Shown here piece by piece: positions 5,415 through 24,641 of a stretch of DNA of 29,018 bases. This stretch comes from Trueperaceae bacterium (lineage in GTDB: Bacteria; Deinococcota; Deinococci; Deinococcales; Trueperaceae): positions 1 to 29,018 of the forward strand of contig JBBDRK010000081.1 in assembly GCA_040905465.1 (NCBI GenBank), in the 5' to 3' direction. Under the pieces are notes generated by a model. That model made no database searches. It saw only the letters and a list, made by a program, of their open reading frames with translations, and was not told where the DNA came from. The translations under genes and the position numbers were made by a program. Each line of letters starts with the position of its first letter. Positions within the stretch are counted from its first letter, which is position 1.

Positions 5415-5505
5415 AGGTAGTTCGCTGACGACGGGAGACCAGTCCCGTCGGGATTTCCTCAATTAACTGGCAGGAAAGCATTACTTTTGCCTGACCAATT
5501 ACCGA

Positions 5506-19534: not shown

Positions 19535-20728
19535 TCAGGAGAGGGTGTCCACGAACTGGCGGGCGGTGCGTCCCGAGTAACCGTTCCCCCACTCGGCGAA
19601 GCGGATGGCTTCGCCGTCGAGCCGACCGTCGGCCGCCTCGATCCCCCGGAACCGGGCCAGCTCGCGCACCATTACCAGGTAGTGGCGCTGGTCGGCGGGC
19701 GGAAAAGTGACGAGCAGGCCGAAACGGTCCGACAGCGCCAGCCGTTCGTTGGTCGTGTCCCAGGCGTGGACGTCATCGTTCTCCGGCATCGGCCGATCGG
19801 CAAGGCTCTCCCGAACCAGGTGCCGGCGGTTGCTGGTGGCCACCAACAGCACGTTGCCTGGCCGCTCCACCAGGCTTCCTTCGAGGAGCGTCTTGAGCGG
19901 CCGGTAGCCGCTGTCGCCGGATTCGAAGGCGAGGTCGTCGATGAACGCCAGGAACCGGTGCGGGGAACCGCGCAGCGCTTCAGCAAGCTCGGGCAGTTCG
20001 CCGAGCGACTCCGGGCCGACCTCGACCAGCCGCAGCCCGTCGCCGCGGTAGCGGGCGAGCAGCGAGCGGACCGCGGTGGACTTGCCGCTGCCCCGGGGAC
20101 CGTAGAGCAGCGTGTGCAGCACCGGCGCACCCGCGAGGAACCGCTCCACGTTGCCGGTCAGGCGCTCGAGCTGGCGCTCGAGTCCCACGAGCTCCTCTAG
20201 CCGGTCACGCGCCGGCCGCTCGAGCCCCTCGAGTCTCCCCCCGCGCCAGCGAAACGCGCCGTGACGCGCCAGCAGCCCCGTCCCGCAGGCTCGGTAGCGA
20301 CCGAGCAATGCGTCCAGCAGCGCCTCCGGCTCCTCGCCGAGGACGCCCGACGCCCACGACTCAAGATCGCCCGGCGGCGCCAACTCTTGCAGTGGCGCCA
20401 GCTCCCGGCCGGTGGCCGCCTGGGCCAGCGCCTGCCAGTCCCGGTCGAGCCGCGTGCGCAGGAGCCCGAGGTCGAGCAGCGCCGCTCGCCGCAGGCCGGA
20501 GGGTAACGAGCCGTCGCGGCGGGCCAGCACCTCTTCCCCGCTGCACAACGCCTCGGCCGCCGCGACAGCGAGCGACGCGTGACCGGCCCTTACCAGCTCC
20601 GCCACCAGCGACGAGTAGGCGTTGGCGACAGCCCGCGACTCACCCTCGTCGAGCGCTCTCTCCAGCTCGTCCAACGTCCGCCACCAGGCGCACTCGGCCA
20701 TCCCTTCGAACACGTAGCAACCTATCAA
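19535..20728 (-). CDS. DUF815-type AAA+ ATPase
   Basis: Walker A GPRGSGKST, Walker B FIDDLAF, LKTLLEG, ATSNRRHLV, LSDRFGL and SGRTARQF. Likely TTG start at 20728 overlaps the patatin stop; ATG at 20701 is the alternative. Confidence 0.88.
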   Translation of the reverse strand: MIGCYVFEGMAECAWWRTLDELERALDEGESRAVANAYSSLVAELVRAGHASLAVAAAEALCSGEEVLARRDGSLPSGLRRAALLDLGLLRTRLDRDWQALAQAATGRELAPLQELAPPGDLESWASGVLGEEPEALLDALLGRYRACGTGLLARHGAFRWRGGRLEGLERPARDRLEELVGLERQLERLTGNVERFLAGAPVLHTLLYGPRGSGKSTAVRSLLARYRGDGLRLVEVGPESLGELPELAEALRGSPHRFLAFIDDLAFESGDSGYRPLKTLLEGSLVERPGNVLLVATSNRRHLVRESLADRPMPENDDVHAWDTTNERLALSDRFGLLVTFPPADQRHYLVMVRELARFRGIEAADGRLDGEAIRFAEWGNGYSGRTARQFVDTLS

Positions 20729-21621
20729 GTCTCTATCCTTCCCGTGGCCCGGCCGAGGCCGAGCCGGTGCCGGTCGAGGGCCGCTCGCATGGCCGCTTCC
20801 CCGGCGGCTATCGCCTCGGGAGAACGGTGGAAGTCCCACCAGCTCAGCGGCGGATCGGCGCGTACCAGCATGGCCCCGGCCGGAACCGTCTGATCACAAA
20901 GGTACGACGCCAGGGCGCACGAGATCCCACGGGCAAGGCTGCGCATCGATGTCGACGGAACCGTCCGCCTGGTAGCGCGCGCCCAGGCCGCTCCTATCCG
21001 CGAGGCCGCCAGCTTCCTCAACGCCGCGATCATGGCAGAACTCTCGGCGTCGACCCCGGCATGGATACCGATTATCGCGTCGGGCCGGAGCGACTCCAGC
21101 GCCCTGAAAGGGACCGCCTCGACGAACCCTCCGTCTATCAGCACCCGCCCGTTCAGGCGAACCGGCGCGAACAGAGCCGGCAGCGCCGAGGAGGCGACTA
21201 CCGCCCTGGCGAGCGAACCCTCGCGCAGGACCACCAGGCTGCCGTCGGCCACATCGGTGCAAGCCACGGCCAACGGCAGCAGGCAGTCGGCGAAGGTAGC
21301 GCCGAAGAATACTTTGCGGTCGAGCCACCGTTCCAGGCGCCGGCCGTGGATGAGGCTCGCCCGATGAAGCCCGAAATCGAGGCTCGTCGACCAGAGCTCC
21401 AGGATGTTCTGCCGTCTCACCAGCTGCTCGAGCTCGACCGCCGGCGTCCCCATGGCGTAGAGCGCAGCGATTATGGCGCCGTAGGAGGTACCGGAGAGGA
21501 CGCGCGGAGCCATGTCCCGCGACTCCAGCACCTTCAAGGCACCGATATGGGCGAGTCCGCGAGCGGTTCCGCCCCCGAGCGCCACCCCCAACCGGGACGC
21601 AGCAGGGCCATCTGCCGTCAT
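20725..21621 (-). CDS. Patatin-like phospholipase
   Basis: GGGTARGLAHIG, GTSYG (GxSxG), ASSALP and DGG all intact. Confidence 0.93.
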   Translation of the reverse strand: MTADGPAASRLGVALGGGTARGLAHIGALKVLESRDMAPRVLSGTSYGAIIAALYAMGTPAVELEQLVRRQNILELWSTSLDFGLHRASLIHGRRLERWLDRKVFFGATFADCLLPLAVACTDVADGSLVVLREGSLARAVVASSALPALFAPVRLNGRVLIDGGFVEAVPFRALESLRPDAIIGIHAGVDAESSAMIAALRKLAASRIGAAWARATRRTVPSTSMRSLARGISCALASYLCDQTVPAGAMLVRADPPLSWWDFHRSPEAIAAGEAAMRAALDRHRLGLGRATGRIET

Positions 21622-21714: not shown

Positions 21715-23565
21715 ATGGCAGCCATCTATCAGAGCGCCCGGCCGGCGACATTTGCCGAAGTCGTTGGTCAGGATCACGTCAAGGACGTGCTTTTGGCCGC
21801 ACTGCAGCGCGGCCGCGCCAGCCACGCCTACCTCTTCTCGGGTCCGCGCGGGGTGGGCAAGACCACCACGGCACGGCTGCTGGCCATGGCGCTGAACTGC
21901 GAGGCGGACGCTGCTTCGGTCCGGCCCTGCGGCAGCTGTGACGGGTGCCGGATGGTACGCGAGGGCCACCATCCCGATGTCATCGAGCTCGACGCCGCCT
22001 CCAACAACTCGGTCGACGACGTGCGAGAGTTGCGTGAGAAGACCAACCTTGCCTCGATGCGCGGCGGCAGCCGGGTGTGGATCCTCGACGAGGCTCACAT
22101 GCTCAGTCGCCCCGCCGCCAATGCCCTGCTCAAGACGCTGGAGGAGCCACCGCCGGGGTTGGTGTTCATCCTGGCGACGACCGAGCCGGAGAAGCTGCCG
22201 CCTACGGTGCTGTCGCGCTGCCAGCACTTCAGGTTCCGGCGCCTGGCCGAGGCGGAGATCCTCGGGAAGCTCGAGCGGCTGTGCCGCGAGGCGGTGGTCG
22301 AAGCGGAGACGGAAGCGCTGGCGTTGGTGGCCAGGGCGGCAGACGGAGCGATGCGCGACGCCGAATCGCTGCTCGAGCGGCTGCTGACCCCGGGTTCGAC
22401 CATCACGCTGGCCTCCGCCGAGGAGGCGCTCGGCCTGCCACCGGTGCACCGCATGCAGCGACTGGCGACGGCGCTCGCCGAAGCAGATCTGGCCTCGCTG
22501 CTGAGCGAGGCCGAGGCGCTCTACCGGGACGGATTCGCGCCCCGGAGCCTGGCCGAGAACCTTGGGACGGTCCTGCGTGACGCCCTGCGCACCGACGTGA
22601 TAGGGGCAGACGTGATCCGGGCAGACGTGATCCGGGCAGATGTGGTCGGGGCAGATGTTGCCGGCGCGCCGGCGGCATTTCGGCTTCCGCTCGAGCGCGC
22701 CGCCCTGATGCGCCTGATTCACGCCCTGGACGACGAGCAGGATCGGTTCATTCGCCGCGACGACCTCTACAGCCTCGAGGTCGCGCTGATAAAGGGCGTG
22801 AACTCGCTCACCACTTCTGCCGGCGGCGGGACAACGACGGAGGCTGCGCAATCGGCGGGACACGCGGAACAGGCGGCAACGCGTCAGGCACCTGGACAGT
22901 CGGCGCCGGCCAGGCAGACTGGGGCGAGGCAGGCAGAGCCGCGTCAGGCAGCGGTAGGGCAGGCAGCGGTAGGGCCGGCAGAGGCGAAGCAGGCAGCGGA
23001 AGGGTCGGCGCAGGCACGGAAGGCAGATGCGGAGCCGGTGCCGGCGCGGGAGGCTGGTGCCGTCCGGCAGCCGGCGACGCCCGAGCCGGCACGGCACAAA
23101 GCGCAACCGGCACGGCACAAAGCGCAAAAGGTGCCACAGCAACCTACGGCGGACGCGAGCGCGCAACCGGGCGAGCTGCCGTCTTTCGATCCCACCGGAC
23201 GCGCTCCCAACCCCGCTGCCAAACCCGCTGCCAAACCTGCCGCGCGCCCGTCGGCGAGTGAGCAGGCAGCAGACACCAAGGGCGCCAGCGGCGGCGAAGC
23301 CTCCGGAGACGCGCCACGGAAACGGCTCGACTGGCACAAGGTACGCAGCGCAGCCGGCCCGCAGCTCAAGGCCTTCCTGATGCCGGCCCGCGAGAGCGTG
23401 GAAGGAACCGACGTCACCATCCGCTACGCCGAAATGCACAAGTTCCACTTCACGGAGCTGAAGAAGCGCGAGAGCGAACTGGCAAGGCTGATCGAGGAGA
23501 TCGGCGGACCCGGGTACCGGCTACGCATCGAAGGGCCTGGCGAAGACACCGCAAAAAAGTCCTGA
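21715..23565 (+). CDS. dnaX: DNA polymerase III subunit gamma/tau, zero-frame product (616 aa)
   Basis: MAAIYQSARP..F.EVVGQ, HAYLFSGPRGVGKTT, Zn cysteines, ELDAAS, DEAHML, LLKTLEEP and SRC. The ORF-track start at 20308 is spurious. Confidence 0.96.
   Translation: MAAIYQSARPATFAEVVGQDHVKDVLLAALQRGRASHAYLFSGPRGVGKTTTARLLAMALNCEADAASVRPCGSCDGCRMVREGHHPDVIELDAASNNSVDDVRELREKTNLASMRGGSRVWILDEAHMLSRPAANALLKTLEEPPPGLVFILATTEPEKLPPTVLSRCQHFRFRRLAEAEILGKLERLCREAVVEAETEALALVARAADGAMRDAESLLERLLTPGSTITLASAEEALGLPPVHRMQRLATALAEADLASLLSEAEALYRDGFAPRSLAENLGTVLRDALRTDVIGADVIRADVIRADVVGADVAGAPAAFRLPLERAALMRLIHALDDEQDRFIRRDDLYSLEVALIKGVNSLTTSAGGGTTTEAAQSAGHAEQAATRQAPGQSAPARQTGARQAEPRQAAVGQAAVGPAEAKQAAEGSAQARKADAEPVPAREAGAVRQPATPEPARHKAQPARHKAQKVPQQPTADASAQPGELPSFDPTGRAPNPAAKPAAKPAARPSASEQAADTKGASGGEASGDAPRKRLDWHKVRSAAGPQLKAFLMPARESVEGTDVTIRYAEMHKFHFTELKKRESELARLIEEIGGPGYRLRIEGPGEDTAKKS
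22591..22665 (+). repeat. Five in-frame 15-bp tandem units in dnaX (TDVIG ADVIR ADVIR ADVVG ADVAG)
   Basis: GCAGACGTGATCCGG occurs exactly at 22606 and 22621, with degenerate copies either side. Confidence 0.85.
22870..23244 (+). repeat. Low-complexity dnaX linker with 15-, 21- and 12-bp repeats
   Basis: CAGGCAGCGGTAGGG-like units; exact 21-bp duplication CCGGCACGGCACAAAGCGCAA at 23086 and 23107; three AAACCCGCTGCC-like units. Confidence 0.75.
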
Positions 23566-23588
23566 CGGGGCGCGCCCAGCCGGCCGTC
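23553..23588 (+). promoter_or_regulatory. Putative programmed -1 ribosomal frameshift signal in dnaX
   Basis: In-phase A AAA AAG at 23553-23559, followed by a hairpin: GACGG (23564-68) / CCGTC (23584-88) with inner GGC/GCC. Confidence 0.8.
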
Positions 23589-24278
23589 CCGCAAGAAGCC
23601 CCGGCGGTCTCCTCCACCCCCGAGCAGGAGTCGGCGGTGGGCCCGGACGCCTTGCCGGCGCGCGAGCCGGCGGCGGATTCGGAAGCTGCCCAGCCGCACG
23701 AGCCGGCGGCGGACTCGAATGCTCCCCAGGTCCGCGAGCCGGCGACGGACTCCGAGCCGGCTCGCGGCCGCGCGCCTGTAGCGCCGGCCACTTCGAACCG
23801 TGCACGAGCGGCGAGGGGTTCCCCGGCTCGCGAACCTGCAGCGGAAACGCCGGGGCCCACCCCTGAAGAAGACACGATGCTCGCGGAGGGCGAGCGCTAT
23901 GTGGAAGAGGAGTTGCCGCCCGGCTTCTGGGAGCAGGACCCTGCGCCGAAGCCACGGGGCGCCTCCCGACCGAAGCCGGCGTCCCGGGCTGCAACCGCGG
24001 ACGAGGAGGCGCCGGCCCCCGAATACGCGCCCGCGGACTACATGACCCACGAGGACACGGTCCCTGAGGCTGAGGCTGAGGCCGCGACCCCCGAGGACAC
24101 CGCCTTCGCGACACTCCAGCAGCTCTTCCCCGGTCGCGTGATCGCCGTAGAGTCGCTGGCGGAGGACTCACTGGCGAGCGAAGACGACCCGGCTGAGCCG
24201 GGATCACTGGAGGCGCCCGAGGCGCCGCAGTCCGGAGAAGGGATTGCCGACGAGGCGGGCGACCAGTTGGAACCCTGA
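23559..24278 (+). CDS. dnaX: -1 frame C-terminal extension of DnaX (239 aa; fused product about 854 aa)
   Basis: Frame is open from the slip site (VLTGRAQPAV...) through ORF 23637..24278. No SD or -10 box seen for an independent start. Acidic linker plus a FATLQQLFPGRVIAVE segment resembling tau C-termini. Confidence 0.75.
   Translation, partial: VLTGRAQPAVPQEAPAVSSTPEQESAVGPDALPAREPAADSEAAQPHEPAADSNAPQVREPATDSEPARGRAPVAPATSNRARAARGSPAREPAAETPGPTPEEDTMLAEGERYVEEELPPGFWEQDPAPKPRGASRPKPASRAATADEEAPAPEYAPADYMTHEDTVPEAEAEAATPEDTAFATLQQLFPGRVIAVESLAEDSLASEDDPAEPGSLEAPEAPQSGEGIADEAGDQLEP
23664..23771 (+). repeat. Three 36-bp units (EPAA/TDS...) in the dnaX extension
   Basis: GAGCCGGCG(G/A)CGGA(T/C)TC at 23664, 23700 and 23736. 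Confidence 0.75.
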
Positions 24279-24320: not shown

Positions 24321-24641
24321 ATGAACATCCAGAAACTCATGAAAGAAGCACAAAAGGCGCAGCAGAAGATGCAGGAAGCGCAGGAGCGCCTGGCGTCGAT
24401 GCATGTCGAAGGCAGCGCCGGGGGCGGCATGGTCACGGCAACCGCCAACGGTGAGGGTACGATCACGGGCGTGAAGATCGATCCAGGGGTGGTCGATCCG
24501 GCGGACGTAGACATGCTCGAGGATCTGGTTTCCGCCGCGGTGGGCGACGCCCAGCGCAAGGCCAAGGAGCTCCAGGAGAGCGAAATGGGCGAAGCGATGG
24601 GCGGCATGGGCGGAATGGGCGGCCTCGGGGGAATGTTCTGA
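24321..24641 (+). CDS. ybaB: YbaB/EbfC nucleoid-associated protein
   Basis: MNIQKLMKEAQ, GSAGGGMV and DVDMLEDLV; lies between dnaX and recR as usual. Confidence 0.95.
   Translation: MNIQKLMKEAQKAQQKMQEAQERLASMHVEGSAGGGMVTATANGEGTITGVKIDPGVVDPADVDMLEDLVSAAVGDAQRKAKELQESEMGEAMGGMGGMGGLGGMF

What the first reader, a model, noticed from the sequence alone, without database searches (positions are those of the whole stretch)
23553..24278. Inverted dnaX recoding: -1 frameshift yields the long (tau-like) product
Seen: the zero frame ends GCA AAA AAG TCC TGA, with the A AAA AAG heptamer in phase and a GC hairpin 4 nt downstream. The -1 frame is open for 239 codons to 24278, just before ybaB, and has no initiation signal of its own. 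Known: E. coli dnaX uses the same heptamer, but there the shift gives the short gamma; Thermus thermophilus uses transcriptional slippage on a longer A run. Inference: here normal termination gives 616 aa and the shift gives about 854 aa, so the final C-terminal segment depends on frameshifting. A small folded domain (LDWHKV...YRLRIEG) sits just before the site, so the short form is longer than a classical gamma. Similar arrangements may already be reported in some lineages, including Deinococcus. The upstream SD-like stimulator is weak (GAAGGG at 23530).
Basis: partly seen in the sequence, partly recalled or inferred. Interest (0 to 1): 0.8.

Follow-up and report, generated by a model that had tools for sequence, protein, structure and literature searches.

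The report
Reversed dnaX frameshift site in Trueperaceae
In this Deinococcus-relative the replication gene dnaX stops early in its normal reading frame, and ribosomes most likely slip back one base at a conserved AAAAAAG site to add the tail that holds the DNA polymerase; the site is real and family-wide, but this mirror-image layout was already described in other phyla.

Summary
dnaX (21715-23565, 616 aa) ends GCA AAA AAG TCC TGA, with A_AAA_AAG in phase. A hairpin starts right after the stop, and the -1 frame is open for 239 codons to 24278.

It is not an assembly error. Of 76 distinct Trueperaceae dnaX loci, 56 have an in-phase slippery heptamer, a zero-frame stop one or two codons later (nine in one locus), a hairpin and a long -1 ORF. 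Four of these use C_CCA_AAA with only four A, which favours ribosomal slippage over RNA-polymerase slippage. Sixteen relatives carry the same tail in frame, so the -1 ORF is part of DnaX.

The tail holds an invariant FPG motif (24102-24161). A complex model places this motif on the last domain of the genome's own DnaE (score 0.67, best control 0.00), as in the solved Thermus aquaticus alpha-tau structure. The short form is therefore gamma-like and the long form (854 aa) is tau.

The site lies at the same junction as the A9 slippage site of Thermus dnaX, with the polarity reversed.

Reversed dnaX was predicted in other phyla (Antonov 2013; Atkins 2016), and this scan noted it on other DNA, though not in this family. 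I class it as a new member of a known kind. No RNA or protein data exist.

The parts
21715..23565 (+). dnaX zero-frame ORF, 616 aa: the short, gamma-like product
   Evidence: NCBIfam NF011524 scores 610.8 bits against a cut-off of 601, and Pfam finds DNA_pol3_delta2, the ATPase lid and gamma3. It is the only dnaX match in the genome.
23287..23535 (+). Small C-terminal globular domain (DnaX_C, aa 525-607), present in both products
   Evidence: Pfam PF20964, E 7.9e-6, 26.3 bits against a cut-off of 26.2. It matches T. aquaticus tau-c chain 4IQJ_M residues 9-69, E 0.0016.
23553..23559 (+). Slippery heptamer A_AAA_AAG in X_XXY_YYZ phase
   Evidence: An in-phase heptamer is present in 56 of 76 distinct family loci: 27 A_AAA_AAG, 25 A_AAA_AAA and 4 C_CCA_AAA.
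23563..23565 (+). Zero-frame stop TGA, one sense codon after the heptamer
   Evidence: The number of sense codons between heptamer and stop is 1 in 45 loci, 2 in 10 and 9 in 1, out of 56.
23566..23591 (+). Stem-loop: 7-bp stem CGGGGCG/CGTCCCG with a 12-nt loop, 6 nt after the heptamer; the likely 3' frameshift stimulator
   Evidence: In relatives a stem starts at the first nt after the stop in 43 of 56 loci. A stem of at least 7 bp occurs in 39 of 55 loci, against 14% at random positions of the same loci. Paired changes occur at stem positions 4-6. No T run follows, and no + strand terminator was found.
23559..24278 (+). -1 frame extension, 239 codons plus stop: the tau-specific tail, mostly low-complexity and acidic
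   Evidence: Homologous -1 ORFs occur in the same frame in G001 and G002. The tail is in frame in 16 relatives. GC by codon position is 0.81/0.60/0.80.
23907..23930 (+). Tail motif i, EELPPGFW
   Evidence: The consensus of alignment A2 is EELPxxFW. A loose form of the motif occurs in 36 of 53 complete -1 ORFs.
24102..24161 (+). Tail motif ii, AFATLQQLFPGRVIAVESLA: the predicted DnaE (alpha)-binding helix and strand
   Evidence: F-P-G is invariant in 42 of 42 aligned tails. Residues 71-95 of the tail form the modelled interface with DnaE. It aligns with the Thermaceae and same-order tail motif by hhalign, E 1.3e-4, probability 54%.
24234..24275 (+). Weak counterpart (GEGIADEAGDQLEP) of the terminal motif GYDDDxQDRLxFG seen in a subset of relatives
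   Evidence: Alignment A2, columns 270-290, and the in-frame forms. The resemblance was judged by eye only.
23626..23639 (+). AGGAG, 6 nt, then an in-frame GTG: a possible internal start of the -1 ORF, seen only in this window
   Evidence: It is not conserved in G001 or G002.
23659..23752 (+). 36-nt tandem repeat (2.6 copies) inside the tail linker
24321..24641 (+). ybaB, the next gene
   Evidence: The same order dnaX-tail-ybaB-recR is seen in G001 and G002.

Best explanation
This is a programmed -1 ribosomal frameshift site at the 3' end of dnaX, conserved across Trueperaceae (Deinococcota).

Ribosomes that decode normally stop at TGA 23563 and release a 616-aa DnaX. That form has the clamp-loader ATPase and the small DnaX_C domain but lacks the polymerase-binding tail, so it is gamma-like.

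A fraction of ribosomes, paused by the stem-loop 6 nt downstream, slip back one base on A_AAA_AAG and read on in the -1 frame to 24278. This gives an 854-aa DnaX whose tail carries the LQxLFPGRV helix-strand motif, which binds the C-terminal domain of DnaE (alpha). That form is tau.

Shown here:
- the sequence anatomy;
- its conservation in phase and position;
- homology of the -1 ORF to in-frame tails of relatives;
- a single dnaX in the genome.

Inferred:
- that the slip is ribosomal;
- its efficiency;
- that the tail motif is the alpha contact (a model plus likeness to the solved Thermus complex);
- that the short form acts as gamma.
For: 1. Conservation. Of 76 distinct family loci with the DnaX_C domain, 56 have an in-phase X_XXA_AAN heptamer with a zero-frame stop 1, 2 or (once) 9 codons later. 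Two complete genomes fetched separately (G024, G012) show the same. One further locus has the near-cognate G_AAA_AAA.

2. Ribosomal rather than transcriptional. The heptamer is always in phase while the A run varies: 4 A in 4 loci, 6 in 26, 7 in 19, 8 in 5 and 9 in 2. The four A4 sites are C_CCA_AAA, a valid tandem-slip heptamer on which RNA-polymerase slippage is not expected.

3. Hairpin. A stem starts at the first base after the stop in 43 of 56 loci. A stem of at least 7 bp occurs in 39 of 55 loci, against 14% at random positions. Stem position 4 is G-C in 26, A-T in 13 and G-T in 3 of 42 stems, and positions 5 and 6 also show double changes.

4. The -1 ORF is coding and belongs to DnaX. 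Its median length is 207 codons (range 76-476; 53 complete), against a median of 24 in the +1 frame. An FPGR-type motif is present in 50 of 53: 44 by the pattern, plus 6 variants printed among the 9 misses. Of the other 3, two are masked and one lacks it. Sixteen relatives, and the same-order outgroups, carry the same motifs in frame.

5. Function of the tail. The model of DnaE's last 330 aa with the 133-aa tail scores 0.67 (median of 3 runs) against a best control of 0.00 in 3 controls. That mark was reached by 58 of 80 solved complexes and 2 of 110 mismatched pairs. The runs agree in at least 50% of contacts, and partner pLDDT is 45-50. The interface is tail residues 71-95, which is motif ii.

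6. Same junction as Thermus. A same-order genome whose tail matches 4IQJ_M at E 4e-48 has an A9 run at ..SLEKKSP.., directly after the same domain. In T. thermophilus this run yields gamma by slippage (PMC4320859, passage).

7. No sequencing error. Contigs of runs X1, X3 and X4 cover the site with no listed indel.

8. No + strand promoter-like or terminator-like site lies between 23400 and 24400.
Against: - There are no RNA or protein data. No listed run is RNA.
- The window's hairpin is no more stable than shuffles (z = -0.76; 40 of 200 shuffles fold as well).
- Rfam's DnaX frameshift element did not match; the only row at E up to 10 was a chance miRNA.
- RNAalifold found no consensus on an ungapped 35-sequence alignment, because loop lengths differ. 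The covariation count therefore rests on my own arm-by-arm script.
- There is no SD-like tetramer upstream in the window. In relatives the SD-like sequence overlaps the conserved GPGE codons, so its excess (25 of 56 against 16%) may reflect the protein.
- The genome has a tRNA-Lys(CUU) gene (cut by a contig end) as well as tRNA-Lys(UUU). As I recall from E. coli work (Tsuchihashi and Brown 1992, not read here), a CUU tRNA lowers slippage on A_AAA_AAG.
- The choice of AAG or AAA as the last codon shows no clear link with that tRNA: 10 of 26 against 14 of 25 genomes have the pattern, and incomplete assemblies confound the count.
- GTG 23637 with AGGAG could start a separate 213-aa protein in this window.
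- In the 26 loci with 7 to 9 A, RNA-polymerase slippage could contribute.
- The complex model may pass from memory of 4IQJ.
Confidence: 0.8

Rival explanations
1. Programmed transcriptional slippage: RNA polymerase adds one A in the A run, and ordinary translation of that mRNA gives the long form, as in Thermus dnaX but with reversed polarity.
For: The site lies at the same junction as the Thermus A9 run (PMC4320859, passage). Twenty-six of 56 loci have 7-9 A. Antonov et al. proposed slippage for the reversed dnaX genes with 7-10 A (PMC3711429, passage).
Against: The window has only 6 A, and four loci have 4 A in a C_CCA_AAA heptamer. The run is in X_XXY_YYZ phase in all 56 loci, and a hairpin sits at a fixed 6-nt spacing. 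Polymerase slippage needs neither feature. As I recall, bacterial polymerases need about 8-9 A for efficient slippage.
Confidence: 0.1
2. There are two separate genes. dnaX ends at 23565, and the downstream ORF is translated on its own (for example from GTG 23637) as a free acidic protein that binds DnaE.
For: AGGAG lies 6 nt before the in-frame GTG at 23637. The tail alone is modelled onto DnaE.
Against: - The start signal is not kept in G001 or G002.
- The -1 frame is open all the way from the heptamer in all 53 complete loci, while the +1 frame has a median of 24 codons.
- No start codon sits at the stop in the loci listed, so termination-reinitiation has no obvious signal.
- Sixteen relatives and the outgroups have the tail fused in frame to DnaX.
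- A free tail would not link the polymerase to the clamp loader.
Confidence: 0.06
3. It is a homopolymer sequencing or assembly error, or a recent frameshift mutation that makes a pseudogene.
For: Homopolymer runs are error-prone, and the genome is an 81-contig assembly.
Against: The same out-of-frame layout occurs in 56 distinct loci, including long-read and complete assemblies, and in two complete genomes. Three runs from two studies give six A with no listed indel. This is the only dnaX in the genome.
Confidence: 0.02

Closest known systems
Reversed (two-ORF) dnaX genes, in which recoding is needed for tau (Antonov et al. 2013, PMC3711429; noted in Atkins et al. 2016, PMC5009743, with Chlorobium phaeobacteroides as an E. 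coli-like candidate)
   Same: The zero frame stops right after a shift-prone A-rich site, and the longer tau part lies in the -1 frame. The site is conserved across genera. It was predicted from genomes.
   Different: Those 17 genes from 12 genera are described with runs of 7-10 A and were assigned to transcriptional slippage (passages). The list of genera is in supplements that I could not open, so I cannot say whether any Trueperaceae is among them. The main text does not mention Truepera. Here the site is a phased heptamer with 4-9 A plus a hairpin. It lies after the DnaX_C domain, so only the polymerase-binding tail depends on the shift.
E. coli dnaX -1 programmed ribosomal frameshift (A_AAA_AAG, 5' SD-like element, 3' stem-loop; Rfam DnaX element)
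   Same: Identical heptamer in the same phase, a stem-loop about 6 nt downstream, and the same gene. One gene makes two clamp-loader forms.
   Different: The polarity is reversed: in E. coli the shift makes the short gamma. The site lies about two-thirds of the way along the E. coli gene, but here it is near the end of the zero-frame ORF. There is no match to the Rfam model and no SD-like element in the window.
Thermus thermophilus dnaX transcriptional slippage at A9 (Larsen et al. 2000 and Yurieva et al. 1997, as described in PMC4320859; the originals are not held)
   Same: Same phylum and the same junction in the protein..KKS.. directly after the DnaX_C domain. The short form therefore has the same domain content, and the long form adds the same tail motif.
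   Different: In Thermus, tau is in the zero frame and gamma comes from slippage on nine A. Here tau is in the -1 frame and the run has six A.
[quoted passage not shown]
   Same: Chain M covers the DnaX_C domain, the LEKKS site and the tail with its ..LRRLARLLGGRLLWV.. motif. The window's tail motif is modelled on the last domain of DnaE. As I recall from the abstract, tau-c contacts the alpha C-terminal domain through its C-terminal helix and adjacent loop.
   Different: Sequence likeness of the tails is confined to about 20 residues. The Trueperaceae tail is 2-4 times longer and carries two further motifs.

Membership tests
Reversed two-ORF dnaX recoding (Antonov 2013 type) | The zero-frame dnaX ORF ends directly after a shift-prone site | tested here: met
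   The stop lies one codon after A_AAA_AAG. The same holds in 56 of 76 family loci.
Reversed two-ORF dnaX recoding (Antonov 2013 type) | The C-terminal, tau-specific part is encoded in the -1 frame and is homologous to tau tails elsewhere | tested here: met
   The -1 ORF carries motifs that are in frame in 16 relatives and in same-order outgroups.
Reversed two-ORF dnaX recoding (Antonov 2013 type) | Both products are made in cells | not testable with these tools
   No RNA run is listed, and no proteome is at hand.
E. coli-type dnaX -1 PRF cassette | X_XXY_YYZ heptamer A_AAA_AAG in the zero-frame phase | tested here: met
   Positions 23553-23559.
E. coli-type dnaX -1 PRF cassette | 3' stem-loop 5-9 nt after the heptamer | tested here: met
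   A 7-bp stem lies 6 nt downstream, conserved in position and with paired changes in relatives. Its energy in the window alone is not exceptional.
E. coli-type dnaX -1 PRF cassette | 5' Shine-Dalgarno-like stimulator about 10 nt upstream | tested here: not met
   No GGAG, GAGG or AGGA within -20..-5 in the window. Present in 25 of 56 relatives, but confounded with the GPGE codons.
E. coli-type dnaX -1 PRF cassette | Match to the Rfam DnaX frameshifting element | tested here: not met
   No DnaX row at E up to 10 in 23450-23700.
E. coli-type dnaX -1 PRF cassette | The frameshift product is the short gamma | tested here: not met
   Here the shift gives the long form.
Thermus-type dnaX transcriptional slippage | Run of about 9 or more A (or T) | tested here: not met
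   Six A in the window. Only 2 of 56 family loci have nine, and 4 have four.
Thermus-type dnaX transcriptional slippage | Site at the junction between the DnaX_C domain and the alpha-binding tail | tested here: met
DnaX (tau/gamma) clamp-loader subunit | AAA+ module, lid, domain III and DnaX_C | tested here: met
   Pfam and NCBIfam hits above their cut-offs; PDB gamma/tau matches at E 4e-67.

The most novel reading that the evidence does not exclude
The Lys-Lys recoding site at the junction of the DnaX_C domain and the polymerase-binding tail is ancestral to Deinococcota and has flipped polarity within the phylum.

- Thermaceae keep tau in the zero frame and make gamma by RNA-polymerase slippage on A8-A9.
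- Trueperaceae put tau in the -1 frame behind a ribosomal slip site, with three interchangeable heptamers and a hairpin.
- Several lineages later erased the site by in-frame fusion. The DnaX tree forces at least six such changes.

If this is right, an essential replisome contact (tau-alpha) in most Trueperaceae depends wholly on efficient ribosomal frameshifting. The tau:gamma ratio would then be set by translation rather than by the gene.
Probability: 0.45. Interest if true: 0.6.

Novelty: new member of a known kind. Interest (0 to 1): 0.42.

Why it matters
1. Annotation. In most Trueperaceae genomes dnaX will be called as a truncated gene plus a 'hypothetical' acidic ORF. The polymerase-binding tail of tau is then missed.

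2. Mechanism. The family offers a natural series at one homologous site: A_AAA_AAG, A_AAA_AAA and C_CCA_AAA heptamers, hairpins with paired changes, in-frame revertants, and Thermus-type A9 relatives. This series could be used to ask how the tau:gamma ratio is set and how easily recoding polarity flips, a point raised only in passing by Atkins et al. 2016.

3. Function. The results locate the likely alpha-binding peptide of Deinococcota tau (LQxLFPGRV) and show that gamma-like forms in this phylum keep the DnaX_C domain.

The family has a cultured member, so the prediction can be tested directly.

Tried and rejected
- A database search for fused long forms with the 239-aa tail (lengths 'longer') returned nothing at E <= 0.001. 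The tool calls this weak evidence, and it also missed the in-frame relatives that I found by other means.
- Pfam, NCBIfam and PDB sequence searches with the tail alone gave no hit.
- RNAalifold on 35 ungapped 47-nt sequences gave no consensus structure, because the loops differ in length. I used an arm-by-arm count instead.
- Rfam gave no DnaX element.
- RNA evidence: no RNA holder is listed. The runs laid are contigs only, so they say nothing on mRNA slippage.
- I tested whether the last heptamer base (G or A) follows the absence or presence of tRNA-Lys(CUU). The pattern is present in 10 of 26 AAG genomes, 14 of 25 AAA genomes and 0 of 4 C_CCA_AAA genomes. Many assemblies are incomplete and I ran no positive control per genome, so the result is inconclusive.
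- GC by codon position in the tail (0.81/0.60/0.80) fits coding in the -1 frame but is not decisive in this Ala/Pro/Glu-rich stretch.
- Hairpin as an intrinsic terminator: rejected, because there is no T run and no + strand terminator-like site.
- The papers by Liu et al. 2013 and Larsen et al. 2000 are not held.
- The supplements of Antonov 2013, which list the 12 genera, could not be opened.
Full report
**Observation**

The window's dnaX reads from ATG 21715 to TGA 23563-23565 (616 aa) and ends GCA AAA AAG TCC TGA. The six A (23553-23558) plus G form A_AAA_AAG in X_XXY_YYZ phase. Read from 23559, the -1 frame is open for 239 codons to the TGA at 24276-24278, 42 nt before ybaB. A slip would therefore give 615 + 239 = 854 aa.

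A 7-bp stem (CGGGGCG 23566-23572 with CGTCCCG 23585-23591) starts directly after the stop, 6 nt from the heptamer.

Taken alone, none of this exceeds chance:
- AAAAAAG occurs once against 0.42 expected.
- The hairpin is not more stable than shuffles (z = -0.76).
- Long open frames are common at 70% GC.

**Who owns the window**

Records retrieved with the DnaX protein are titled Trueperaceae, Truepera sp. or Deinococcota MAGs. The window's assembly has 81 contigs, is 95% complete, and has one dnaX.

**Conservation**

The two same-genus genomes keep four features: the heptamer in phase, one sense codon, a stop (TGA or TAG), and a CGGGACG..CGTCCCG stem. They also keep a -1 ORF with two islands of protein identity, ERYVEEELPPGFWE and FxxLQxLFPGRV.

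I then collected loci from 81 family genomes (30 loci returned) and 80 named records. After removing duplicates, 76 loci had the DnaX_C domain. They divide as follows:
- 56 have an in-phase X_XXA_AAN heptamer with the zero-frame stop 1 (45 loci), 2 (10) or 9 (1) sense codons later.
- One has G_AAA_AAA.
- Three run off their contig.
- 16 have no site, and the zero frame simply continues.

Counted by the heptamer nearest the stop, 27 sites are A_AAA_AAG, 25 are A_AAA_AAA and 4 are C_CCA_AAA. The A run is 4, 6, 7, 8 or 9 long in 4, 26, 19, 5 and 2 loci. Two complete genomes fetched separately (G024, G012) show the same cassette.

Contigs of three runs from two studies reproduce six A with no listed indel. 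An assembly error or private mutation is therefore excluded.

**Hairpin**

- In 43 of 56 loci the longest stem starts at the first base after the stop.
- Stems of at least 7 bp occur in 39 of 55 loci, against 14% at 5,500 random positions of the same loci. Stems of at least 9 bp occur in 15 of 55, against 2%.
- Among the 42 stems that start at that base, position 4 is G-C in 26, A-T in 13 and G-T in 3. Positions 5 and 6 also show both-side changes.
- Loop length and sequence vary freely. For that reason RNAalifold on an ungapped alignment found nothing.
- No T run follows, and no + strand terminator-like site was found.

**The -1 ORF belongs to DnaX**

After the heptamer, the -1 frame is open for a median of 207 codons (range 76-476; 53 complete ORFs). 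The +1 frame has a median of 24. An FPGR-type motif is present in 50 of 53 ORFs. Of the remaining three, two are masked and one lacks it.

The 16 loci without a site carry the same three motifs in frame with DnaX: LPxGFWD, LQxLFPGRV and, in a subset, GYDDDxQDRLxFG. Four same-order genomes of other families carry the middle motif in frame as well.

In the 42-row tail alignment, F-P-G is invariant.

The window does have AGGAG 6 nt before an in-frame GTG at 23637. That signal is absent in the two same-genus genomes, and none of the loci listed has a start codon at the stop.

**What the tail does**

The zero-frame product already contains Pfam DnaX_C (aa 525-607), which matches residues 9-69 of the T. 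aquaticus tau-c chain 4IQJ_M.

A same-order genome (L117) matches that chain at E 4e-48 over its whole tail. The match shows that the chain runs through ..LEKKS.., a Pro-rich linker and ..LRRLARLLGGRLLWV.. to the C-terminus.

In L117 the codons for EKK are an A9 run. This is the run at which T. thermophilus makes gamma by slippage (PMC4320859, passage). The window's ..TAKKS* sits at the same junction, directly after the same domain. The short Trueperaceae product is therefore the counterpart of Thermus gamma, and the -1 tail is the counterpart of the tau-only tail.

I modelled the last 330 aa of the genome's own DnaE (alignment of 22 rows) with the 133-aa tail (42 rows).
- The score was 0.67 (median of 3 runs), against 0.00 for the best of 3 controls.
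- That mark was reached by 58 of 80 solved complexes and 2 of 110 mismatched pairs.
- The runs agree in at least 50% of contacts, and partner pLDDT is 45-50.
- The confident interface is tail residues 71-95, which is motif ii, against DnaE residues 236-278 of the 330-aa fragment.

A similar complex (4IQJ) is solved, so this pass shows likeness and may come from memory.

[quoted passage not shown] This is analogous, although that paper states that the E. coli and Taq domains are unrelated.

**Mechanism**

The fixed phase, the C_CCA_AAA variants with only four A, and the hairpin at a constant 6-nt spacing all point to ribosomal -1 slippage rather than polymerase slippage.

Points against high efficiency in this genome:
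- There is no SD-like tetramer upstream.
- A tRNA-Lys(CUU) gene is present beside tRNA-Lys(UUU).

The tRNA census across genomes was inconclusive.

**Evolution**

I built a quick maximum-likelihood tree of the DnaX N-terminal 346 columns (81 rows, rooted on five same-order outgroups). The frameshift layout is spread through the family, and the in-frame forms are nested at several places. The in-frame label needs 8 changes, of which at least 6 are forced by well-supported branches. The tree is a gene tree from a short search, and long branches are flagged, so I treat the count as approximate.

Its loci were not used.

**What is known**

Antonov et al. [quoted passage not shown] It covers 17 genes in 12 genera, 12 of them with runs of 7-10 A, and was assigned to transcriptional realignment (abstract and passages).

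Atkins et al. 2016 restate this and name Chlorobium phaeobacteroides as a candidate with E. coli-like signals (passages).

A full-text search for dnaX with Truepera found one paper, which concerns D. radiodurans and reports a single 786-aa DnaX. A search for dnaX, frameshifting and Deinococcus found nothing on this family.

Earlier notes of this scan describe reversed dnaX in Neisseriaceae, a Firmicute, Planctomycetes and Bacteroidota, but none for Trueperaceae.

**Verdict**

This is a real, family-wide recoding site. It is a new member of the known reversed-dnaX kind, with three points of added interest: it shares its junction with the Thermus site, it uses three alternative heptamers, and only the polymerase-binding tail depends on the shift.

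Noticed in passing
window 22594-22655, 22913-23026, 23086-23127, 23202-23237: The linker of dnaX between domain III and DnaX_C is built of short in-frame tandem repeats: a 15-nt unit x4.1 (DVIRA..), 30/45-nt units, a perfect 21-nt duplication (PARHKAQ) and a 12-nt unit x3. The region differs in length between the three same-genus genomes.
   Followed up: partly
G000:C10:36876-40670 (DnaE), last residues; alignment A3: DnaE of this family ends in a conserved ..DVPF (P nearly invariant in 22 rows). This resembles the acidic-hydrophobic tips that other replication proteins use as docking peptides. Its partner was not examined.
   Followed up: no
G000:C80:69891-69912 (contig end): A tRNA-Lys(CUU) gene is cut off by the end of contig C80, so ARAGORN misses it. 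Only 38 tRNA genes are found in the assembly. tRNA censuses on such assemblies undercount.
   Followed up: yes
L029, L031, L067 (also L069, L104): Some family members are markedly AT-richer around dnaX (5.6-5.8 Mb genomes for two of them). Their tails are in frame and their linkers are Lys/Ser/Thr-rich instead of Ala/Pro/Glu-rich, yet they keep LPPxFW and LFPG.
   Followed up: partly
L009 / L043: In one lineage the stop after the heptamer is replaced by TTA. The zero frame then runs through the hairpin and stops 9 codons later, and the -1 ORF (244 codons, LFPG motif) is kept.
   Followed up: partly
L019 (= L051): A locus with GGA AAA AAA AAG (nine A) has a -1 ORF of only 110 codons without the FPG motif. 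The tail may lie in another frame or be degenerate. Not resolved.
   Followed up: no
window 20725-21621 (- strand): The ORF upstream of dnaX on the other strand (298 aa, with GTSYGA and DGG motifs) looks like a patatin-like phospholipase. Not searched.
   Followed up: no
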